Shown: positions 20,144 through 26,053 of the stretch, piece after piece
Layout of the letters: each line of letters opens with the position of its first letter
Numbering within the stretch: position 1 is the first letter of the stretch
NCBI GenBank assembly: GCA_963842525.1
Contig: CAWJGT010000009.1
Span: 1,056,001-1,120,000, forward strand
DNA length: 64,000 nt
Direction: 5' to 3'
Source: an uncultured Holophagales bacterium
GTDB taxonomy: Bacteria > Acidobacteriota > Thermoanaerobaculia > Multivoradales > UBA5704
Position numbers and translations under genes: made by a program
The notes under the pieces: model-generated
The model's input: the letters and a program-made list of their open reading frames with translations, nothing else
Databases searched by the model: none
Told to the model about the DNA's origin: nothing

Positions 20144-20665
20144 ATGGCGAGACTTGCGGCTATTCCGGCGAGTGCGGCTAGTGCGCTTAGTTCTACGCCA
20201 TTCTGGCGAGGGGAGTTTCGCCCTGAAGCTGTGGGCTTGCCTCCAGTGACATTCAAGCTAAGGCAAGTGTTCGTGTTGATGCCGATGGAAGGCGAAGAGG
20301 CGGAGGAAATCTACCGGACACTGAAGGCCGCCTGTGCGACAGTCGATCTGATAGCAACGAGGGTGGACGAGAGGGTCGGTGCCCGAATCATTATGCAAGA
20401 TATCGACCGAATGATGGGAGAGGCCGAGTTTCTCATATTTGATCTAAGTAAAGAGCGCCCAAATGTCTACTATGAACTCGGCTATGCCCATGGTATTGGC
20501 AACAATGCCGAGAACATCTTATTAATAGCCCGCGAAGGCACGCATATTCACTTTGATGTTGCACCTCTACGGATCCAGTTCTATCGATCGACCGATCACC
20601 TCCAGTCTCTTGTTGCCTCACAGCTAAGCGCAATGAAGCAAATCACACGAGGATTGGTACGATGA
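20144..20665 (+). CDS. Cassette 4: nucleoside 2-deoxyribosyltransferase-like protein
   Basis: AGGAGG RBS; VFVLMPM, AEFLIFDLSKERPNVYYELGYAHG, HFDV. Confidence 0.8.
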   Translation: MARLAAIPASAASALSSTPFWRGEFRPEAVGLPPVTFKLRQVFVLMPMEGEEAEEIYRTLKAACATVDLIATRVDERVGARIIMQDIDRMMGEAEFLIFDLSKERPNVYYELGYAHGIGNNAENILLIAREGTHIHFDVAPLRIQFYRSTDHLQSLVASQLSAMKQITRGLVR

Positions 20666-20816: not shown

Positions 20817-21494
20817 ATGGCTGATCTGAAGCTGCATCACATTGGAGAGCCCTTGGTCGCCAGGATGCTTCAGAAGCTTGAGGCGGCCGGGCGGCTCTCG
20901 AACTTGGTCTGCGAGCGTATGCACGTCTCGGTTGAGGATGACATCGTTGCTGGGGGACTTCAAAGGCCGATCGAGTTCTTTCCGGAGAGAGCAACCCTCG
21001 GTGTCTCGGCCAATGGTGAAGAATTGATCTGTGATGGCGCACAGAAGGTTGATGTCCTCTGCGTGAGTAGTGGCCAGCGGGCCATGGCGTTCGAGCTCAA
21101 GCTGGGAGAGGAGCGACTTGGGACCAACGAGTTCGAGAGACGGTTCTTGGGAAAGTGCTCCACTTCCCATGCTGGTTCTCGGCTCAAGGGCTCAATGATC
21201 TCTGTACTTGATCGCAGTTTCTTGAGGACCGACGCGGCGGTTCTCCGGGCATCCGCATCGCCTCCTACTGGTGGGCCTATCAAGAAGTGGGATGTCGTCC
21301 GTCCTTGGTGGCTGGTCATCAGGAACAGTGTTTGGTTCCGATGGAAACAGTCCGGGATACCGGGCTTGACCAATGGGCGTATCCTCGTCATCGAGAAAGT
21401 CGTCCGAGAACTCGGAGGCGAGGAGGTCTTCAATGGTTTGGTCCGTGAGGTTCTATGCGGCAACTTTTTCGAGGCGTGGGAGATAGGTCAGTGA
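20817..21494 (+). CDS. Cassette 5: hypothetical protein, possible PD-(D/E)XK nuclease
   Basis: KVDVLC...AFELKLG pattern. Confidence 0.65.
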   Translation: MADLKLHHIGEPLVARMLQKLEAAGRLSNLVCERMHVSVEDDIVAGGLQRPIEFFPERATLGVSANGEELICDGAQKVDVLCVSSGQRAMAFELKLGEERLGTNEFERRFLGKCSTSHAGSRLKGSMISVLDRSFLRTDAAVLRASASPPTGGPIKKWDVVRPWWLVIRNSVWFRWKQSGIPGLTNGRILVIEKVVRELGGEEVFNGLVREVLCGNFFEAWEIGQ

Positions 21495-21500
21495 ACCGCC

Positions 21501-21562
21501 GGCCAACCAAGCGGCTCCAGCGGACGGCTGACGCCGCGCGCTGAGCCGCCACAGCGTTAGGC
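21501..21562 (+). other. attC site 5
   Basis: GGCCAAC (complement of GTTGGCC)...GTTAGGC. Confidence 0.9.
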
Positions 21563-21579
21563 GTTTTGAGGCAGCACCT

Positions 21580-22278
21580 ATGAATCGAACTGAAAAACTG
21601 AACGAACTGCGAGCCCTCGCGCAGAACAAGCCGACGATCCCAAACGAGGAATTCGGCGCATGGCAAGCGCGGGTGTCGGCGCTCATTGGTTTCGACCGTC
21701 TGCAACAAGACAAGTTCCGCCACTTGGCGAGTTCGGCGACGATTCCCGGTGACGACTTCTTCCCGTCGTGCATGCGCCAGATGGAACAGATCCTCTTCCA
21801 AGCCATAGCGGACTTGGAGGTTGGTCCAGATGTCCCAGCCGAGCCACCTGCCGAATCCGGGAAGCCAATAGACGTATTCATCAGTTATTCGACTACCGAC
21901 AGAGCGATTGCAGAGGAGTTAGCCAATCGTCTCAGAGCACTTCAGCTTACAGTCTTCTTGTCGCACGACACCATCACAACGGGACCCGCATGGCGTTCAC
22001 AAGTCGGTGTCGTCCTTCGTCGCTGCGGCGTAGCAGTGCTGCTCTTGAGCACGCAATCACTCCACAGCGATTGGGTTCGTTACGAGATTGGAGCATTATG
22101 GGCACTTAATAAGCCTGTCGCTCCGGCTCTGCTCGACTGTGATGCATCTCAACTTCCTGAGCTTGTGCGCGATTTCCAATCACGCTCAGTTGCAACCGCC
22201 TCAGATCGCGCCGTCTTTTGCCACGAAGTGGAAAGACTGGTCCGCGATACTCGAACAAATGACAACCGAAACGCCTAA
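21580..22278 (+). CDS. Cassette 6: TIR-domain protein
   Basis: DVFISYSTTD, VFLSHDTI, SDWVRYEIG (catalytic E). The stop lies in GCCTAAC, the R'' of a truncated attC. Confidence 0.9.
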   Translation: MNRTEKLNELRALAQNKPTIPNEEFGAWQARVSALIGFDRLQQDKFRHLASSATIPGDDFFPSCMRQMEQILFQAIADLEVGPDVPAEPPAESGKPIDVFISYSTTDRAIAEELANRLRALQLTVFLSHDTITTGPAWRSQVGVVLRRCGVAVLLLSTQSLHSDWVRYEIGALWALNKPVAPALLDCDASQLPELVRDFQSRSVATASDRAVFCHEVERLVRDTRTNDNRNA

Positions 22279-22280
22279 CC

Positions 22281-22380
22281 GGAAATAAGTGCCAGCCGAA
22301 TCTAGCCTGGCCCAAACCCGAAATGAGTGGCCCAAACCCGAAATGAGTGCGGCCGAAATGAGTGCCCGAAATGAGTGCCA
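22281..22380 (+). repeat. REP-like motif array: GGAAATAAGTGCCAGCCGAATCTAGCC then 4 x CCGAAATGAGTG
   Basis: Read directly. The last copy is split by the IS110 element and resumes at 23918 (CAGCCGAATCTAGCCT). Confidence 0.9.
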
Positions 22381-22399
22381 CCCATTAGAAGGCTCTTGT

Positions 22400-22820
22400 C
22401 AACGACCCACACGTCTCCCACCCGGGAGTGTTCGTTTCAAGAACGGCTCGTTCCGGCAAGATGTGCTCCCGTGTCGGGTTTGCGCGCCCGTAGTCTCGCT
22501 GTGCTTCAGGTGCGGAGATCCGCACCAGCCACCCATCGGGATCAAGGCGGGTCGGAGCCGGTGACGGCTCCGACCCGCCCCTGGCACGGTTTGCGTGCCC
22601 CCAGAAAATCTTCGGTTCCAGGTTCGTGTCCAAGGTTCAGGACAACCAATAAGGCTACCTCCTCCCCCCGAAGGGGGTTCAGAGGTGCCAGCACATTCGG
22701 GCTCACGACCTGGGCGCATCTCCGACAAAAGAGCCAAAAACGGTGGAAGACAGGGGCCAATCAGCCGTAGAGGGTTCTTTCGCCCAGCACCTAATTGCAG
22801 GCTCCCTGTCTTCCACCTGA
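22400..22820 (-). ncRNA. Candidate bridge/seekRNA region
   Basis: Non-coding end of the IS1111-type element. Perfect stems 22546-22579 and 22742-22755/22804-22817; short matches to target and donor junction. Confidence 0.6.
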
Positions 22821-22821
22821 A

Positions 22822-23838
22822 TCAACCAAAAGCTTGCGCCGACCTGAACGGCACCTGGTCGCGCAGGATGTAGAACGCGGCACGAGTCAGCTTGTTCGAG
22901 ATCGTCCGCAGGGCCACCAACTCGTTGGTCCTGGCCCGCTTGCGCTCGTAGAGACGCTTGGCGAGGGGCTCGAACCGAATGGCGAAATGTGAAGCCTCCA
23001 TGAACGCCCAGGACAGGTACGGGTTGCCATTGCGTACGTTGCCGGAACCCTTGACCTTGCCGTTGCTGAGGTGCTGACTGGGTACACAGCGGCAGTAGGA
23101 GGAGAAGTGGCCCGCCTCGGCAAAGCGAGCGATGGAGCCGGTTTCGTACATGATCGTCAGGGCAAGGGTCAGACCGATGCCGGGAATGCTCTCGAGCAGC
23201 TCGAACTCGGGCCTCAGTCTGGCCTGTTTGAGAACAGTTTTCTCGATGCCAGAGATTTGGTCTTTCAGCGTGCGGGCGATCGCCAGGCTGCTGGTGATCG
23301 TCAAGGCGATATGTGGGTCCGTGAATTGCTCCTCGACCTGCTCGGCCGTCATGCGCTTGAGCTCGCTGAGGGGAACTTGCGCTCCGGTGTAGCGCGAGAA
23401 GACGTTTTTGACGCTCAGCAAGCTGGCGGTGCGCTGTCGCACCAGAAAGGCTCGGCGGCGCAGTAGATCTCGCACCGCGCGCTCCTTTTTCGGATAGATG
23501 TGACCGGTGGGCAGAATGTTGAGGTGGAGCAGGCGCGCCAGCCACCGCGCGTCATGGCGGTCATCGACGTACTTCAAGCCCTCGTACTGGCGGACAGCGG
23601 AGGTGTTGACCAAGCGAACCTCGTAGCCGGCCTCCATGAGCCCATCCACCAACCAGTACCAGTTGAAGGTGGACTCCACGGCGGTCGCCTGGATCTGCTC
23701 TCGGAAGGGCTCCAGGGATTCCAGGACCGCCTCCAGACGGTTGGGCACCCGCCTGCTGAGGACCGATTGCAGTTGCTCGTTCATCACCACGAGATAGCTG
23801 TTGGTTGAATGCAAGTCGATTCCACAGTAAAGTCCCAT
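22822..23838 (-). CDS. IS110 DEDD recombinase
   Basis: YCGIDLH, AVESTFNWYW, KYVDDRHDA, SIPGIG, SNGK, GNPYLSWAF. Confidence 0.95.
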   Translation of the reverse strand: MGLYCGIDLHSTNSYLVVMNEQLQSVLSRRVPNRLEAVLESLEPFREQIQATAVESTFNWYWLVDGLMEAGYEVRLVNTSAVRQYEGLKYVDDRHDARWLARLLHLNILPTGHIYPKKERAVRDLLRRRAFLVRQRTASLLSVKNVFSRYTGAQVPLSELKRMTAEQVEEQFTDPHIALTITSSLAIARTLKDQISGIEKTVLKQARLRPEFELLESIPGIGLTLALTIMYETGSIARFAEAGHFSSYCRCVPSQHLSNGKVKGSGNVRNGNPYLSWAFMEASHFAIRFEPLAKRLYERKRARTNELVALRTISNKLTRAAFYILRDQVPFRSAQAFG

Positions 23839-24171
23839 GCGCTCCTCCTTTCAGGGATTGGTCTCCCGACGAGCCTATCGCGGCTCGTCAGAAGGGAGGA
23901 GCCTTCTAGAGGATCATCAGCCGAATCTAGCCTCCTGAAGAGTCAATTGCACTGCCGAGCCGCGCTTCGGTGTGGCTTCGGTGCGCAAACTGGCAGGTGA
24001 AGGGCACCTGAGCACGCCGAGAGGTGGTCGCTCACTCCTTGTGTGGAGCGTTGAAAGCCTGTATCGCGCTTTTTGAGGGTTCCAGGGATAGACCTCTCCC
24101 GATCCCGCGCCAGGAAGTCAGCGGCCGGCCGGAAACTACGAAGGCTGTCAGCGGCCCGAAGTCCCGAGGGC

Positions 24172-25096
24172 CTACCCACTTACCCAGGGCAGGGCCGGCG
24201 GGAAGCTGCCTGCCGGGAAGACAACATCGCGCACTCCCGCCCGGAGCTTCTCCGCGGCGGTCCGGAAGGCGCCCACGAACTCGCCATAGGCTCGATAGAA
24301 CTCGAGACGGACGTTCTTGCTCGCCGCATGGAAGAGCGGAGCAGGAGATTTCTTCGGTTTGGCCGGCCGGTCGTGACGCTTCTGGGCGCAGACTGCTTCG
24401 GGACCCAGGACAGGACGGCCCATGGCCTCGCGGACCTCCGCAGCCCGAGACTCGATGCTGGCCACCAGAGCGGCGATCCGCTCGCGGTACTGTTGAGGAG
24501 TGAGATGCGCCCAGCAGGGGAGCTGCTCGAGCTTGAGGGTGTATTCGGTCGCGAAGTCGAGACGGTGGAAGGACTGGCCTCTCTGGCGGGCGGCGTACTC
24601 GCTCGAGCGGTTGAACCAGTGGCCGACGAGGAGAGCACCATCCAGCAGAGCGGGGACGACGCTGACGCCCGGCCAGTCCCGGAGGGTTTGGACAAGTCCC
24701 TCCTTGACCCCGTGGCTCAAAATGTACGCGAGGCGTTCGATCTGGGCCTGGGGCTCGTCGCTGATCGGGATGGCCTGAAAGCGGCGGGACCAGAACTTTT
24801 CCCGCCAGTCGGCCAGGCGCCCGGCTTCGCGGGCAAGATTTGAGTTGAAGTGATTCATGAATGAGGCGAGTCGGCGCGTGTCGTCGACCTGGAGAAGGAG
24901 GTGATAGTGCCCGGAGGCAAAGGCGAAGGCGATGAGGCGGACGGGGTAGAGCTGCCTGGGCGCGTCCGAGGGCGCCGAGGATGAGGTCATTGAGCTCCGC
25001 AGAGGGAGCGAGCAGGAAGCGGCCGTGGACGGTCCGTGTGGTGACCTCGACAAGTCCGCTCCCCTCGGGTGGCATGAAACGGAGTTTTCGACTCAT
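24172..25096 (-). CDS. RAYT-like Y1 HUH transposase with a +1 frameshift near 24955
   Basis: MSRKLRF..VEVTTRT, GHYHLLL (HUH), FWSRRF, LAYILSHGVKEGLV..DWPGVS. Flanked by inverted GTGCCAGCCGAA copies. Confidence 0.82.
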
Positions 25097-25232
25097 GCCC
25101 CTTAAAAAGACGTAAAACGGGTCGCCGATCTTGCATAACTCGGAAAAGTTCTTGCCGCGGACCGGAATGATGACTGAATGTCAACGGACGGCGGATCTGT
25201 GGAGGTAGTCCAGAGCGGTCCCGAGCGAAGCT

Positions 25233-25274
25233 GTTCGGCTGGCACTTCTGTCTGTTCGGCTGGCACTTCTGTCT
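25233..25274 (-). repeat. REP-like motif array: 2 x 21-bp AGACAGAAGTGCCAGCCGAAC
   Basis: Perfect tandem, inverted relative to the arrays at 12835 and 22281. Confidence 0.92.
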
Positions 25275-25312
25275 GGCCGGCGCTGGATCAGGTGATCCAC
25301 GTCGTGACGCGC
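25275..25312 (+). repeat. 38-bp direct repeat, right copy (probable ancestral 3' end of the hydrolase gene)
   Basis: Continues in the hydrolase frame as VVTRNPASPERRPGR* with stop at 25346-25348. Confidence 0.9.
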
Positions 25313-25323
25313 AACCCAGCATC

Positions 25324-25532
25324 CCCAGAGAGGCGGCCAGGGCGGTAGTCACCAGGGACCAGAAGAGCTCTGCGCCGGGATAGACCGCGAGCAGGCGGAA
25401 AAAGCTCCTGGCGCGCAGACGTTCAAAATTGTTCGACCATCGTGCGCGTTCGTCCGGATTGGACAGCAGCGGCAGCAGTGGCGTCTCCACTCCGATGCGG
25501 AGGATCAGATTGGCCGAAACGATTCCGGGCGC
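25324..25532 (-). repeat. 209-bp duplicate of 26198-26406 (3' part of the large membrane-protein gene)
   Basis: About six mismatches by eye. Confidence 0.93.
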
Positions 25533-25586: not shown

Positions 25587-25853
25587 TTAGGGGAAGTATC
25601 TGTAGATATCTCGGCGGTGGAGAATTCTGACCAGCGTTGCTTGGTCGCCTTCGATCATAAGACCCAGGCGGTAATCACCGATACGGATGCGATAGTACGC
25701 TCCGGGACCTTGGAGCTTTCTGAGCTGAGGGATCTCTCCAATCCCATCGGCGCACTCAACCGCCTCGATGACTCGCTTGACACGAGCCCGAGCTTCCGGC
25801 TGCCGGAGCTGCCGCAAGTCCCTGGCGAAGCTCTCGCGAAAGCTGGTTTTCAC
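25587..25853 (-). CDS. relE: RelE/ParE-family toxin
   Basis: SFARDLR, KLQG..YYRIRIGDYRLG, HRRDIYRYFP. Confidence 0.92.
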   Translation of the reverse strand: MKTSFRESFARDLRQLRQPEARARVKRVIEAVECADGIGEIPQLRKLQGPGAYYRIRIGDYRLGLMIEGDQATLVRILHRRDIYRYFP

Positions 25854-26053
25854 TCTTCGAGGATCCGGAAAACCTCGTCTCGCCCCACAGGCAGGCTCTG
25901 CTCGCCTTCACGGATCGCATGGACCATGCCGATGTCCTCCAGAGCCTCTTCCAAGAGATCCAGCACAAGATCCCTGCGCTCTTCGAGTACCTCGATCATG
26001 GCCGTCTCGACCAGATTCTTGATCCTGCTGTCTTCAATGCTCGCGTCCGCCAT
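25850..26053 (-). CDS. Antitoxin partner of RelE
   Basis: Acidic 67 aa, EALEDIGMVHAIREG..VGRDEVF; overlaps the toxin start. Confidence 0.82.
   Translation of the reverse strand: MADASIEDSRIKNLVETAMIEVLEERRDLVLDLLEEALEDIGMVHAIREGEQSLPVGRDEVFRILEE

What the first reader, a model, noticed from the sequence alone, without database searches (positions are those of the whole stretch)
22281..23933. IS1111-type bridge recombinase inserted exactly into the RAYT-associated motif
Seen: removing 22381-23919 restores GAGTGC-CA-GCCGAATCTAGCCT, matching the intact copy AAGTGCCAGCCGAATCTAGCCT at 22287-22308, so the empty target and core (CA/TG) can be read within the window. The predicted circle junction gives TTGACA-17 bp-GATGAT. 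The 420-bp non-coding end has GTGCCAGC (22685), CTGGCAC (22581) and CAGCCG (22762) matching the target, and CACCCAT (22530) matching the donor junction. Known: IS110/IS1111 elements use bridge/seekRNAs and some target REPs or attC. Inference: a new RNA-guided specificity that parasitises this REP class.
Basis: partly seen in the sequence, partly recalled or inferred. Interest (0 to 1): 0.72.

Follow-up and report, generated by a model that had tools for sequence, protein, structure and literature searches.

The report
RNA-guided IS1111 element in RAYT-like repeat
This is a 1.5-kb insertion sequence of the known IS1111 kind that carries its own guide RNA and has landed in the end motif of a neighbouring tyrosine-transposase repeat unit; it is a new member of a known family, not a new mechanism.

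Summary
Window 22381-23919 is a 1539-bp IS110-family element of the IS1111 type: a 338-aa DEDD transposase on the minus strand, 10-bp subterminal inverted repeats and a 441-nt non-coding end downstream of the gene. Removing it restores a 22-mer that is 21/22 identical to an intact copy 70 bp away. The genome holds four full copies and several fragments. All 6 right-hand junctions read GTGCCA and 4 of 5 left-hand junctions read GCCGAA.

Comparison with 80 relatives shows that the stem-loop just after the stop codon (22742-22817) is the target-binding loop. Its two strands (22787-22795 and 22762-22767) change with the flanks. AUGGGUG (22530-22536) changes with the right end and is a donor guide. 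GTGCCAGC (22685) and CTGGCAC (22581) are conserved scaffold; the latter is a hairpin arm.

The target is the last conserved stretch of a multi-copy RAYT-like Y1-transposase unit, and relatives in three other genomes sit at the same spot. IS110/IS1111 elements that target REPs through bridge RNAs or seekRNAs are already known, so this is a new member of a known kind. A second, target-like loop is the only possibly new feature.

The parts
22381..23919 (-). IS element, 1539 bp. The boundary is ambiguous by the 2-nt core, so 22379-23917 is equally valid.
   Evidence: The genome holds four full copies at 97-100% identity with identical ends.
22822..23838 (-). DEDD transposase (bridge recombinase), 338 aa
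   Evidence: Pfam DEDD_Tnp_IS110 and Transposase_20. NCBIfam transpos_IS110 scores 188 bits against a cut-off of 140; it aligns to the IS621 and ISCro4 transposases.
22386..22395 (.). Subterminal inverted repeat, right-end arm (TAGAAGGCTC). Its partner is at 23899-23908.
   Evidence: pair I10: 10 nt, 100% complementary. The repeat covaries in relatives (T-A becomes C-G in L025 and L026).
23899..23908 (.). Subterminal inverted repeat, left-end arm (GAGCCTTCTA)
   Evidence: pair I10
22742..22817 (-). Target-binding stem-loop (loop 1), seekRNA-like. It has a 14-bp outer stem around a large internal loop.
   Evidence: pair I3. In one search, all 11 consensus pairs have compensatory changes across 38 sequences.
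22787..22795 (-). Right-target guide (RNA AUUAGGUGC). [quoted passage not shown]
   Evidence: Cognate match is 6.9 of 9 against 4.3 when shuffled; 0 of 5000 permutations reach the observed value.
22760..22767 (-). Left-target guide CGGCUG (left target half plus core TG), followed by AU, which equals the first two bases of the left end
   Evidence: Cognate match is 3.89 of 5 against 1.70 when shuffled. The two following bases match in 48 of 55 rows.
22618..22713 (-). Loop 2, a second stem-loop built like loop 1. The strands CGAAUGUGC (22691-22699) and UUGGUUG (22643-22649) lie in it.
   Evidence: One search shows the outer stem covaries. Searches show the strands track loop 1 but add no match to the target beyond loop 1.
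22605..22614 (-). Candidate right-donor guide (RNA CGAAGAUUUU), partly complementary to the left end ATGATCCTC
   Evidence: Cognate match is 5.94 of 9 against 5.19 when shuffled, with 0 of 5000 permutations reaching it. The signal is weak.
22528..22536 (-). Left-donor guide AUGGGUG (right-end tip plus core), followed by GC, which equals the first bases of the right target half
   Evidence: The variable end positions match in 27 of 27 distinct pairs, and the first target base matches in 23 of 27.
22397..22402 (-). -35 hexamer TTGACA of the predicted circle-junction promoter
   Evidence: In one search, TTGACA is present in 32 of 43 distinct relatives and the spacer is 16-18 nt in 43 of 43.
23913..23918 (-). 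-10-like hexamer GATGAT, formed by the core G plus the left-end tip
   Evidence: In one search the hexamer is GATAAT in 20 and GATGAT in 9 of 43 relatives.
23841..23902 (-). 5' UTR hairpin that pairs the ribosome-binding site GGAGGAGC with GCUCCUCC next to the left inverted repeat
   Evidence: pairs I8 and I9. One search shows the same pairing with changed letters in relatives, judged by eye only.
22373..22380 (+). Left half of the split target (GAGTGCCA)
23920..23933 (+). Right half of the split target (GCCGAATCTAGCCT). It is the 3' terminal motif of the Y1 unit.
22287..22308 (+). Intact copy of the target motif
22308..22379 (+). Tandem arrays (20-nt unit x2.1, 13-nt unit x3.2) of the sequence next to the motif
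24172..25096 (-). RAYT-like Y1 (HUH) transposase gene. It is frameshifted in the window: the first 46 aa read in another frame.
   Evidence: An intact 307-aa paralogue was scanned.
25234..25266 (-). Two tandem copies of GTGCCAGCCGAA upstream of the Y1 gene, inverted relative to the downstream copy

Best explanation
Window 22381-23919 is an IS110-family insertion sequence of the IS1111 group. Its DEDD transposase works with an RNA transcribed from the 441-nt non-coding right end.

The first stem-loop after the stop codon (22742-22817) is the target-binding loop. [quoted passage not shown] This aims insertion at (A)GGTGC-CA-GCCGAA.

Further downstream a multi-branch region carries donor guides. 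AUGGGUG reads the right-end tip plus the core. A weaker segment, CGAAGAUUUU, reads the left-end tip. The two bases after the core in each bottom-strand guide match the partner DNA, like the handshake guides of IS621.

Circularisation would join TTGACA at the right end to GATGAT at the left end and form a promoter.

The target is the last conserved stretch of a repeat unit built around a RAYT-like Y1 transposase gene, and it also occurs as scattered solo copies.

Shown here: the anatomy, the shared target, and the covariation between guides and DNA. Inferred: that the RNA is made, binds the protein and guides recombination, by analogy with ISEc11, ISPa11 and IS621.
For: **Family.** Pfam DEDD_Tnp_IS110 and Transposase_20 both match. 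NCBIfam 'IS110 family RNA-guided transposase' scores 188 bits against a cut-off of 140. The protein aligns to the IS621 and ISCro4 transposases at E about 1e-10, with Ser258 opposite their serine of the ...YESG... motif.

**IS1111 features.**
- The subterminal inverted repeats are 10 bp.
- The non-coding end downstream of the gene is 441 nt, against 79 nt upstream.
- The protein is 338 aa.

**Copies.** The genome holds four full copies at 97-100% identity. Three of the four have intact 338-aa frames. Copies 1 and 4 differ at more than 50 nt positions in the gene but only 7 aa.

**Target.**
- All 6 independent right-end junctions read GTGCCA, and 5 of 6 read AGGTGCCA.
- 4 of 5 left-end junctions read GCCGAA.

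**Guides.** Among 84 elements (80 loci plus 4 own copies), cognate guide-flank matches exceed every one of 5000 permutations:

| Guide | Cognate | Shuffled | Distinct pairs |
|---|---|---|---|
| Right-target | 6.9 of 9 | 4.3 | 48 |
| Left-target | 3.89 of 5 | 1.70 | 47 |
| Left-donor | 8.52 of 9 | 7.43 | 27 |
| Right-donor | 5.94 of 9 | 5.19 | 32 |

- For the left-donor guide, the variable end positions match in 27 of 27 pairs.
- Close relatives at 69-83% aa identity with different flanks differ precisely in these strands.

**Structure.**
- The outer stem of loop 1 has 11 of 11 pairs with compensatory changes.
- The rest of the RNA has 18 of 34 pairs with compensatory changes.
- The fold z-score is -7.9.

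**Order of the matches.** The top-strand match lies 5' of the bottom-strand match, as reported for IS1111 seekRNAs (PMC11187229, section 9).

**Junction promoter.** It is conserved in relatives.
Against: - There is no expression evidence. No RNA run holds the stretch, and no Rfam family matches.
- The window's own insertion site has a mismatch to the guide: GAGTGC against the AGGTGC seen at 5 of 6 junctions.
- The right-donor guide signal is small, with systematic mismatches at donor positions 2 and 7.
- Seven loci with 900 nt of downstream DNA did not match my anchor pattern for the donor guide and were left out.
- Permutation tests do not remove shared ancestry among relatives.
- The serine motif reads SN rather than the SG or TG reported for the family (PMC11187229, section 6).
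- Placement of the transposase inside the IS1111 clade on a tree was not tested.
Confidence: 0.87

Rival explanations
1. The target is read by the segments the first reader named: GTGCCAGC at 22685 and CTGGCAC at 22581, in addition to CAGCCG.
For: The RNA-sense strand of 22683-22692 (GCUGGCACCU) is a 10-nt identity to the consensus target. GTGCCAG is a 7-nt match.
Against: - Both segments are kept in relatives whose targets differ. L017, for example, has GGTGCTGGCAC but targets ATAGCC-TG-GCGCTTC.
- 22581-22587 is the 3' arm of a hairpin that forms in 27 of 27 relatives with 27 different sequences.
- Of the eight bases at 22685-22692, three lie in the invariant UGG and three in a covarying inner stem.
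- By k-mer matching alone the hits are within chance.
Confidence: 0.05
2. Loop 2 (22618-22713) is a working second DNA-reading loop, for example for excision or for a relaxed second look at the target, and not a relic of a duplication.
For: - Loop 2 is present, with a covarying outer stem, across relatives down to about 48% aa identity.
- Its two strands resemble the cognate loop 1 strands and the cognate flanks more than shuffled ones. The figures are 5.02 vs 4.28 of 9 and 2.84 vs 1.73 of 5, with 0 of 5000 permutations reaching them.
- Published IS1111 elements give a long RNA of 145-172 nt whose role is unknown (PMC11187229, discussion).
Against: - Where loop 1 mismatches the flank, loop 2 matches in 13 of 49 positions (0.27), against a null of 0.31. 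It therefore adds nothing beyond loop 1.
- In recent target switches (L017, L020, L021, L029) loop 2 kept the old letters.
- For ISEc11 the short one-loop RNA sufficed for movement (PMC11187229, section 10).
Confidence: 0.3
3. Site choice is made by the protein recognising the DNA motif, and the RNA matches are by-products.
For: The subterminal inverted repeats and element ends are conserved, and they could be protein-binding sites.
Against: - Relatives with 69-83% identical proteins use unrelated flanks.
- The only systematic differences between them lie in the two loop strands, which mirror those flanks.
- RNA guidance has been shown experimentally for other members of the family (PMC11187229, PMC11208160).
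Confidence: 0.04
4. The link to the RAYT-like unit is incidental. The IS simply follows a 14-bp word wherever that word lies.
For: Two of the four full copies (own2, own4) and two right-end fragments (at C3:337239 and C9:243189) lie at solo motif copies with no Y1 hit reported next to them.
Against: - Six of the 84 elements end 243-274 bp downstream of a RAYT-like reading frame on the same strand. They are own1, own3, L018, L019, L020 and L043, from four genomes.
- This holds although L020 and L043 have different guides and flanks.
- The motif is the last conserved stretch of the unit.
Confidence: 0.3

Closest known systems
IS1111-group elements with seekRNA (ISEc11, ISPa11, ISKpn4; Siddiquee et al. 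2024, PMC11187229)
   Same: - The transposase is a DEDD enzyme of about 340 aa.
- Subterminal inverted repeats are present.
- The long non-coding region lies downstream of the gene.
- A stem-loop of about 80 nt has a top-strand match 5' of a bottom-strand match, and the two overlap at the insertion point.
- ISPa11 also targets a REP.
   Different: - The guide letters and the target differ.
- The serine motif reads SN, not SG or TG.
- A conserved second loop of the same build follows the first. I could not see the paper's figures or supplements to tell whether those elements have one too.
IS621 bridge RNA (Durrant et al. 2024, PMC11208160; Hiraizumi et al. 2024, PMC11208158)
   Same: - Both strands of target and donor are read by loop strands that include the core.
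- Two-base handshake positions are present.
- A promoter forms at the circle junction.
- IS621 also inserts into REPs.
   Different: - Here the RNA lies at the right end, not the left.
- The order of the strand matches is reversed.
- The right-target guide stops short of the core.
- The donor guides sit in a multi-branch region, as Durrant et al. note for many IS1111 orthologues.
[quoted passage not shown]
   Same: Each is an IS1111-group element that inserts into the end of another mobile unit.
   Different: The unit attacked here is a Y1 (RAYT-like) unit with a short non-palindromic end motif, not a Tn3-family inverted repeat.
ISPpu9 and MITEPpu9 of Pseudomonas putida (PMC12288879; abstract and discussion read)
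   Same: - It targets REPs.
- Parts of the element occur as separate or tandem modules. Here a 315-nt right-end module stands in tandem at C9:243189-243504.
   Different: - ISPpu9 forms no junction promoter, whereas this element has a conserved one.
- No boxes resembling the element ends flank the duplicated module here.

Membership tests
IS110 family (DEDD transposase) | An N-terminal RuvC-like DEDD domain plus the C-terminal Transposase_20 domain | tested here: met
   PF01548 at E 1.5e-14 and PF02371 at E 5.3e-18. NF033542 scores 188 bits against a cut-off of 140.
IS110 family (DEDD transposase) | A catalytic serine in the G--P----S(G) motif | tested here: inconclusive
   In one search, Ser258 aligns with the serine of ...PRRYESG... 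in the IS621 and ISCro4 chains. The next residue is N. A crude pattern count found SN in 23 relatives.
IS1111 group | Subterminal inverted repeats of 7-17 bp | tested here: met
   pair I10: 10 bp, 100% complementary. The arms lie 5 nt (right end) and 9 nt (left end) inside the ends, not counting the core.
IS1111 group | The longer non-coding region lies downstream of the transposase gene | tested here: met
   441 nt downstream against 79 nt upstream.
IS1111 group | In the guide RNA the top-strand match lies 5' of the bottom-strand match | tested here: met
   The criterion comes from PMC11187229, section 9.
IS1111 group | The transposase branches within the IS1111 clade on a tree | not tested
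   No named reference transposases were at hand.
Bridge RNA / seekRNA | The RNA is expressed and bound by the transposase | not testable with these tools
   No RNA run holds the stretch.
Bridge RNA / seekRNA | Loop strands covary with the target and donor DNA | tested here: met
   All four guides exceed 5000 of 5000 permutations. The right-donor guide is weak.
RAYT (REP-associated tyrosine transposase), for the neighbouring gene | A match to the curated RAYT model | tested here: inconclusive
   The intact paralogue scores 47.6 bits against a cut-off of 80 and covers 15-144 of 146 model positions. Pfam Y1_Tnp scores 26.3 against 23. The HUH motif (HYHLLL) and the Tyr (AYILSH) can be seen in the translation.
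RAYT (REP-associated tyrosine transposase), for the neighbouring gene | The gene is flanked by REPs in inverted orientation | tested here: met
   One search shows forward motif copies 190-350 nt upstream and a reverse copy 241-285 nt downstream in the window clade. Searches agree.
RAYT (REP-associated tyrosine transposase), for the neighbouring gene | One gene copy per genome and abundant (>100) palindromic REPs | tested here: not met
   One search finds at least four full-length paralogues plus fragments. One search finds 23 exact motif copies, against 2.3 expected. The motif is not a palindrome.

The most novel reading that the evidence does not exclude
This IS1111 clade uses a three-part RNA, not the published one-loop seekRNA or two-loop bridge RNA.
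- The first part is a fast-switching target loop.
- The second is a conserved loop of the same build that follows the target only loosely.
- The third is a multi-branch donor region whose guides read across the element-flank junctions.

The lineage also follows the ends of RAYT-like Y1 units from genome to genome, re-writing its guide as those ends diverge. That would be a standing parasitism of one mobile family on another.
Probability: 0.3. Interest if true: 0.62.

Novelty: new member of a known kind. Interest (0 to 1): 0.4.

Why it matters
The locus gives a worked natural example of guide re-programming in the IS1111 group. Relatives with 69-83% identical transposases differ in a few loop letters and land in different sites, which helps anyone designing guides for these recombinases.

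It also shows that one mobile family, IS1111, repeatedly occupies the end of another, the RAYT-like Y1 units, in at least four genomes.

For genome annotation it explains the split motif, the non-coding 440 nt and the frameshifted neighbouring gene. It does not reveal a new mechanism.

Tried and rejected
- **Rfam scan** of 21500-25500 at E up to 10 gave only chance-level hits to unrelated families.
- **Sequencing runs:** no RNA holder was listed. Contigs of four DNA-type runs were laid. They are short pieces of related elements. Some break at 22374-22375 and at 23924, so they share the GTGCCA and GCCGA half-sites. None spans the stretch, and no circle or empty-site joint was seen.
- **k-mer matching** of the non-coding end to target and donor cannot separate real from chance matches.
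- **First end-finding patterns** failed for many right ends and picked the internal donor guide in L037 and L068. These were corrected.
- **Rows dropped from the loop 1 analysis:** own3, L022, L027, L048 and L090 were dropped because anchoring on the stop codon failed (frameshifts or misalignment). own4 was left out of the right-target test because its right end abuts the tandem fragment.
- **Loci missing from the donor analysis:** 15 loci lacked my donor-guide anchor. Eight of them have too little downstream DNA. Seven have 900 nt but no match.
- **Loop 2 as an independent reader of the target** was tested and not supported.
- **The 315-nt tandem fragment at C9:243189-243504** cannot be explained as an insertion into a look-alike site inside another copy. 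The bases on either side of that junction do not resemble the target.
- **Hairpin counting:** a tool count of pairs for the hairpin at 22581 was not run, because its 5' arm is misaligned by a gap in alignment A2 and a script assertion failed. I folded each row separately instead.
Full report
**1. What is in the sequence**

Window 22381-23919 is bounded by CA on both sides (22379-22380 and 23918-23919). Removing it joins GAGTGCCA to GCCGAATCTAGCCT. The result differs at one base from the intact AAGTGCCAGCCGAATCTAGCCT at 22287-22308.

The minus strand carries a 338-aa reading frame at 23838-22822.
- It matches Pfam DEDD_Tnp_IS110 and Transposase_20.
- It matches NCBIfam 'IS110 family RNA-guided transposase' at 188 bits, against a cut-off of 140.
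- Among solved structures it aligns to the ISCro4 and IS621 transposases at E about 1e-10, with Ser258 opposite their motif serine.

The element has the marks of the IS1111 group as defined in PMC11187229 (section 6) and PMC11208160 (passages).
- The subterminal inverted repeats are 10 bp, at 22386-22395 and 23899-23908.
- The non-coding leader is 79 nt and the non-coding tail is 441 nt.
- The protein falls in the 330-350 aa range.

I did not place the protein on a tree.

**2. Other copies and their flanks**

The window lies in a 9.95-Mb assembly of 34 contigs. A search of that assembly gave 14 rows:
- four full copies at 100, 97, 97 and 97% identity;
- one 1012-nt left part;
- fragments of 315, 227, 111 and 58 nt;
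- five rows of a 34-nt internal self-match.

Reading the flanks gives six independent right-end junctions. All six have GTGCCA, and five of the six have AGGTGCCA. The window copy is the exception, with GAGTGCCA. Of five left-end junctions, four read GCCGAA and one reads GCCTCT.

Three of the four full copies keep the 338-aa frame, and own3 has a one-base insertion. Copies 1 and 4 differ at more than 50 nucleotide positions in the gene but only 7 residues. This points to selection on the protein.

**3. Which parts of the non-coding end read DNA**

Against the restored 20-mer the longest match is 8 nt, which 65 of 500 dinucleotide shuffles reach.

I therefore fetched relatives. One search confirmed 556 stretches encoding a relative and kept the best 80, at 48-83% aa identity. 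The closest come from Acidobacteriota, Thermoanaerobaculia and Holophagales assemblies. I defined element ends from the conserved left tip and from the right tip together with the inverted repeat.

*Target loop.* In the closest relatives the picture is plain by eye. The stem-loop just after the stop codon keeps its stem, while two strands of its internal loop change with the flanks.

| Element | 5' strand | 3' strand | Flanks (left - core - right) |
|---|---|---|---|
| This element | AUUAGGUGC | CGGCUG | TTCGGC-TG-GCACCTA |
| L015-L017, L024 | GAGAAGCGC | AGCCUG | ATAGCC-TG-GCGCTTC |
| L022 | GAAAGGUGU | CUCUG | GCTC-TG-ACACCTTTC |
| L026 | AGUAGGUGC | CGCGUG | ACGCG-TG-GCACCTACT |

Over all usable rows:
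- The 9 nt before the inner stem match the reverse complement of the right flank at 6.9 positions, against 4.3 when flanks are shuffled (48 distinct pairs).
- The 5 nt before the core match the left flank at 3.89 positions, against 1.70 (47 pairs).
- No permutation out of 5000 reached either value.
- Five rows were dropped for failed anchoring, and own4 was left out of the right-flank test.
- The outer stem has 11 consensus pairs, all with compensatory changes.

The order of the matches, top strand 5' of bottom strand, is the one reported for IS1111 seekRNAs (PMC11187229, section 9). The stem-loop of 76 nt is close to their 82-96 nt.

*Donor guides.* Further downstream, AUGGGUG (22530-22536) follows the right-end tip. 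Where relatives end in AATGGC, AATGTG, AATGAG or AATGGA, the internal word changes in the same way. The match is 27 of 27 distinct pairs at both variable positions.

The base after the core in this word matches the first base of the right flank in 23 of 27 pairs. Likewise, the two bases after the core in the left-target guide (AU, AG or AA) equal the first two bases of the left end in 48 of 55 rows, and in 7 of the 9 rows where that end does not start with AT. These positions behave like the handshake guides described for IS621 (PMC11208158, passages).

A segment just before CUGGGG (22605-22614) is partly complementary to the left-end tip. The cognate match is 5.94 of 9 against 5.19 when shuffled, with 0 of 5000 permutations reaching it. 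It has constant mismatches at positions 2 and 7, so I call it a candidate only.

Fifteen loci lacked my anchor for the donor word. Eight are cut short, and seven have the DNA but no match.

The donor strands sit around two hairpins inside a domain closed by a long-range stem. This agrees with the remark in PMC11208160 that many IS1111 orthologues hold donor-binding bases in a multi-loop.

- CAGCCG (22762) is the left-target guide.
- CACCCAT (22530) is the left-donor guide.
- CTGGCAC (22581) is the 3' arm of a hairpin that forms in 27 of 27 relatives from 27 different sequences.
- GTGCCAGC (22685) lies in a second loop (see section 4) and is kept in relatives with other targets.
- The main right-target guide, at 22787-22795, was not listed.

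**4. A second loop of the same build**

Between the target loop and the donor region lies loop 2 (22618-22713). It has a covarying outer stem, then GAGCC, a variable strand, UGG, an inner hairpin, AGCCA, and a second variable strand ending in UG. This mirrors loop 1.

Its strands resemble the cognate loop 1 strands and the cognate flanks more than shuffled ones. However, where loop 1 mismatches the flank, loop 2 matches in only 13 of 49 positions, against a null of 0.31. In recent target switches it kept the older letters. L020, L021 and L029, for example, still carry ACGGCUG, which is the present element's left guide.

Loop 2 is therefore either a slowly following relic or a loop with a relaxed role. 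In the text I read I found no description of such a loop: the searches, and the sections and passages of PMC11187229, PMC11208160 and PMC13604230. I could not see figures or supplements, so I do not claim it is unpublished. The 145-172-nt 'long seekRNA' of unknown role may correspond to it. That link is an inference.

**5. Promoter across the circle junction**

TTGACA (22397-22402, minus strand) lies 16 nt from the right tip. With the core this gives TTGACA, 17 nt, GATGAT. Among 43 distinct relatives with both ends defined:
- the -35 hexamer is TTGACA in 32;
- the spacer is 16-18 nt in all 43;
- the -10 hexamer is GATAAT in 20 and GATGAT in 9.

Junction promoters are known for this family (PMC12288879 discussion; PMC13604230).

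**6. The target and the RAYT-like unit**

GTGCCAGCCGAA occurs 23 times in the genome, against 2.3 expected. It often appears as (A/G)A(A/G)GTGCCAGCCGAAC and in short tandem arrays.

The gene next to the element (24172-25096, minus strand) is a Y1 HUH transposase.
- Pfam Y1_Tnp is above its threshold.
- The NCBIfam RAYT model is the best hit but stays below its cut-off: 39 bits for the window copy and 47.6 bits for an intact 307-aa paralogue, against 80.
- The window copy is frameshifted after residue 46.
- The genome holds at least four full-length paralogues plus fragments.

In the window clade, forward motif copies lie upstream of the gene and a reverse copy lies 241-285 nt downstream. An alignment of five 3' flanks shows that similarity ends just after the motif. 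The IS therefore sits in the last conserved bases of the unit. It occupies that spot in two of the five units.

The unit fits the RAYT picture in gene type and in its inverted flanking repeats. It does not fit in copy number of the gene, in abundance of the repeat, or in palindromy.

In other genomes, relatives of the IS again lie 243-274 nt downstream of a RAYT-like frame on the same strand. The cases are L018, L019, L020 and L043, plus own1 and own3, which makes 6 of 84 elements from four genomes. L020 and L043 have different guides and flanks. Only 1.5 kb of flank and four query proteins were used, so this is a lower bound. The other two full copies here lie at solo motif copies.

**7. Comparison with what is known, and verdict**

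IS621, ISPpu9, ISPpu10 and ISPa11 insert into REPs (reference lists of PMC2817692 and PMC11208160; PMC12288879). IS4321 and IS5075 insert into the ends of Tn21-family transposons (title seen only). RNA guidance in both groups was shown in 2024.

This element is therefore a new member of a known kind, with its own guide and target. Expression, protein binding and activity are inferred, not shown.

Noticed in passing
G000:C9:241650-243504 (L096): A 315-nt copy of the right end (donor region plus tip, without loop 1) stands in tandem directly after a full copy. The outer flanks form a normal target. The inner junction joins the right tip to TGTGCTGGCACC inside loop 2, and the bases around it do not resemble the target.
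   Followed up: partly
loci (e.g. L021, L043, L062, L089, L090): In 6 of 27 distinct elements the core at the right-end junction reads CG, while the left-end core and the RNA guide read TG. This may be a trace of insertion into sites with a mismatched core.
   Followed up: no
window 24172-25096 (-): The RAYT-like gene beside the IS is frameshifted. Residues 1-46 (MSRKLRFMPPEG...) read in one frame and the rest in another. The paralogue at C3:734353-735276 is intact at 307 aa.
   Followed up: yes
window 22308-22379: Tandem arrays of the bases just outside the unit's end motif (20-nt unit x2.1 and 13-nt unit x3.2) lie between an intact and an IS-occupied copy of the motif. Similar short arrays of motif pieces lie upstream of the Y1 genes, at window 25234-25266 and C3:735428-735480. 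Their origin is unexplained.
   Followed up: partly
window 23841-23902 (-): A hairpin in the 5' UTR pairs the ribosome-binding site GGAGGAGC with a segment next to the left inverted repeat. Relatives show the same pairing with different letters (by eye). This suggests control of transposase translation.
   Followed up: no
window 21580-22278 (+): The gene ending 9 bp before the intact motif copy encodes a 232-aa protein with a TIR_2 domain (E 5e-19) and a weak ThsB_TIR match. The two upstream frames (20144-20665 and 20817-21494) match no Pfam family. This could be a defence locus.
   Followed up: no
window 25587-26053 (-): Two small adjacent frames of 88 aa and 67 aa look like a RelE/ParE-type toxin with its antitoxin. 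This is judged from the translation alone (recalled resemblance, no search run).
   Followed up: no
L056 versus L054: Two copies of one relative in a Methylococcales assembly differ by an insertion of about 70 nt inside the donor region of the non-coding end.
   Followed up: no
transposase residue 258-259: The conserved serine is followed by N here, and by a crude pattern count in 23 relatives. The family is reported to have SG or TG at this position.
   Followed up: partly
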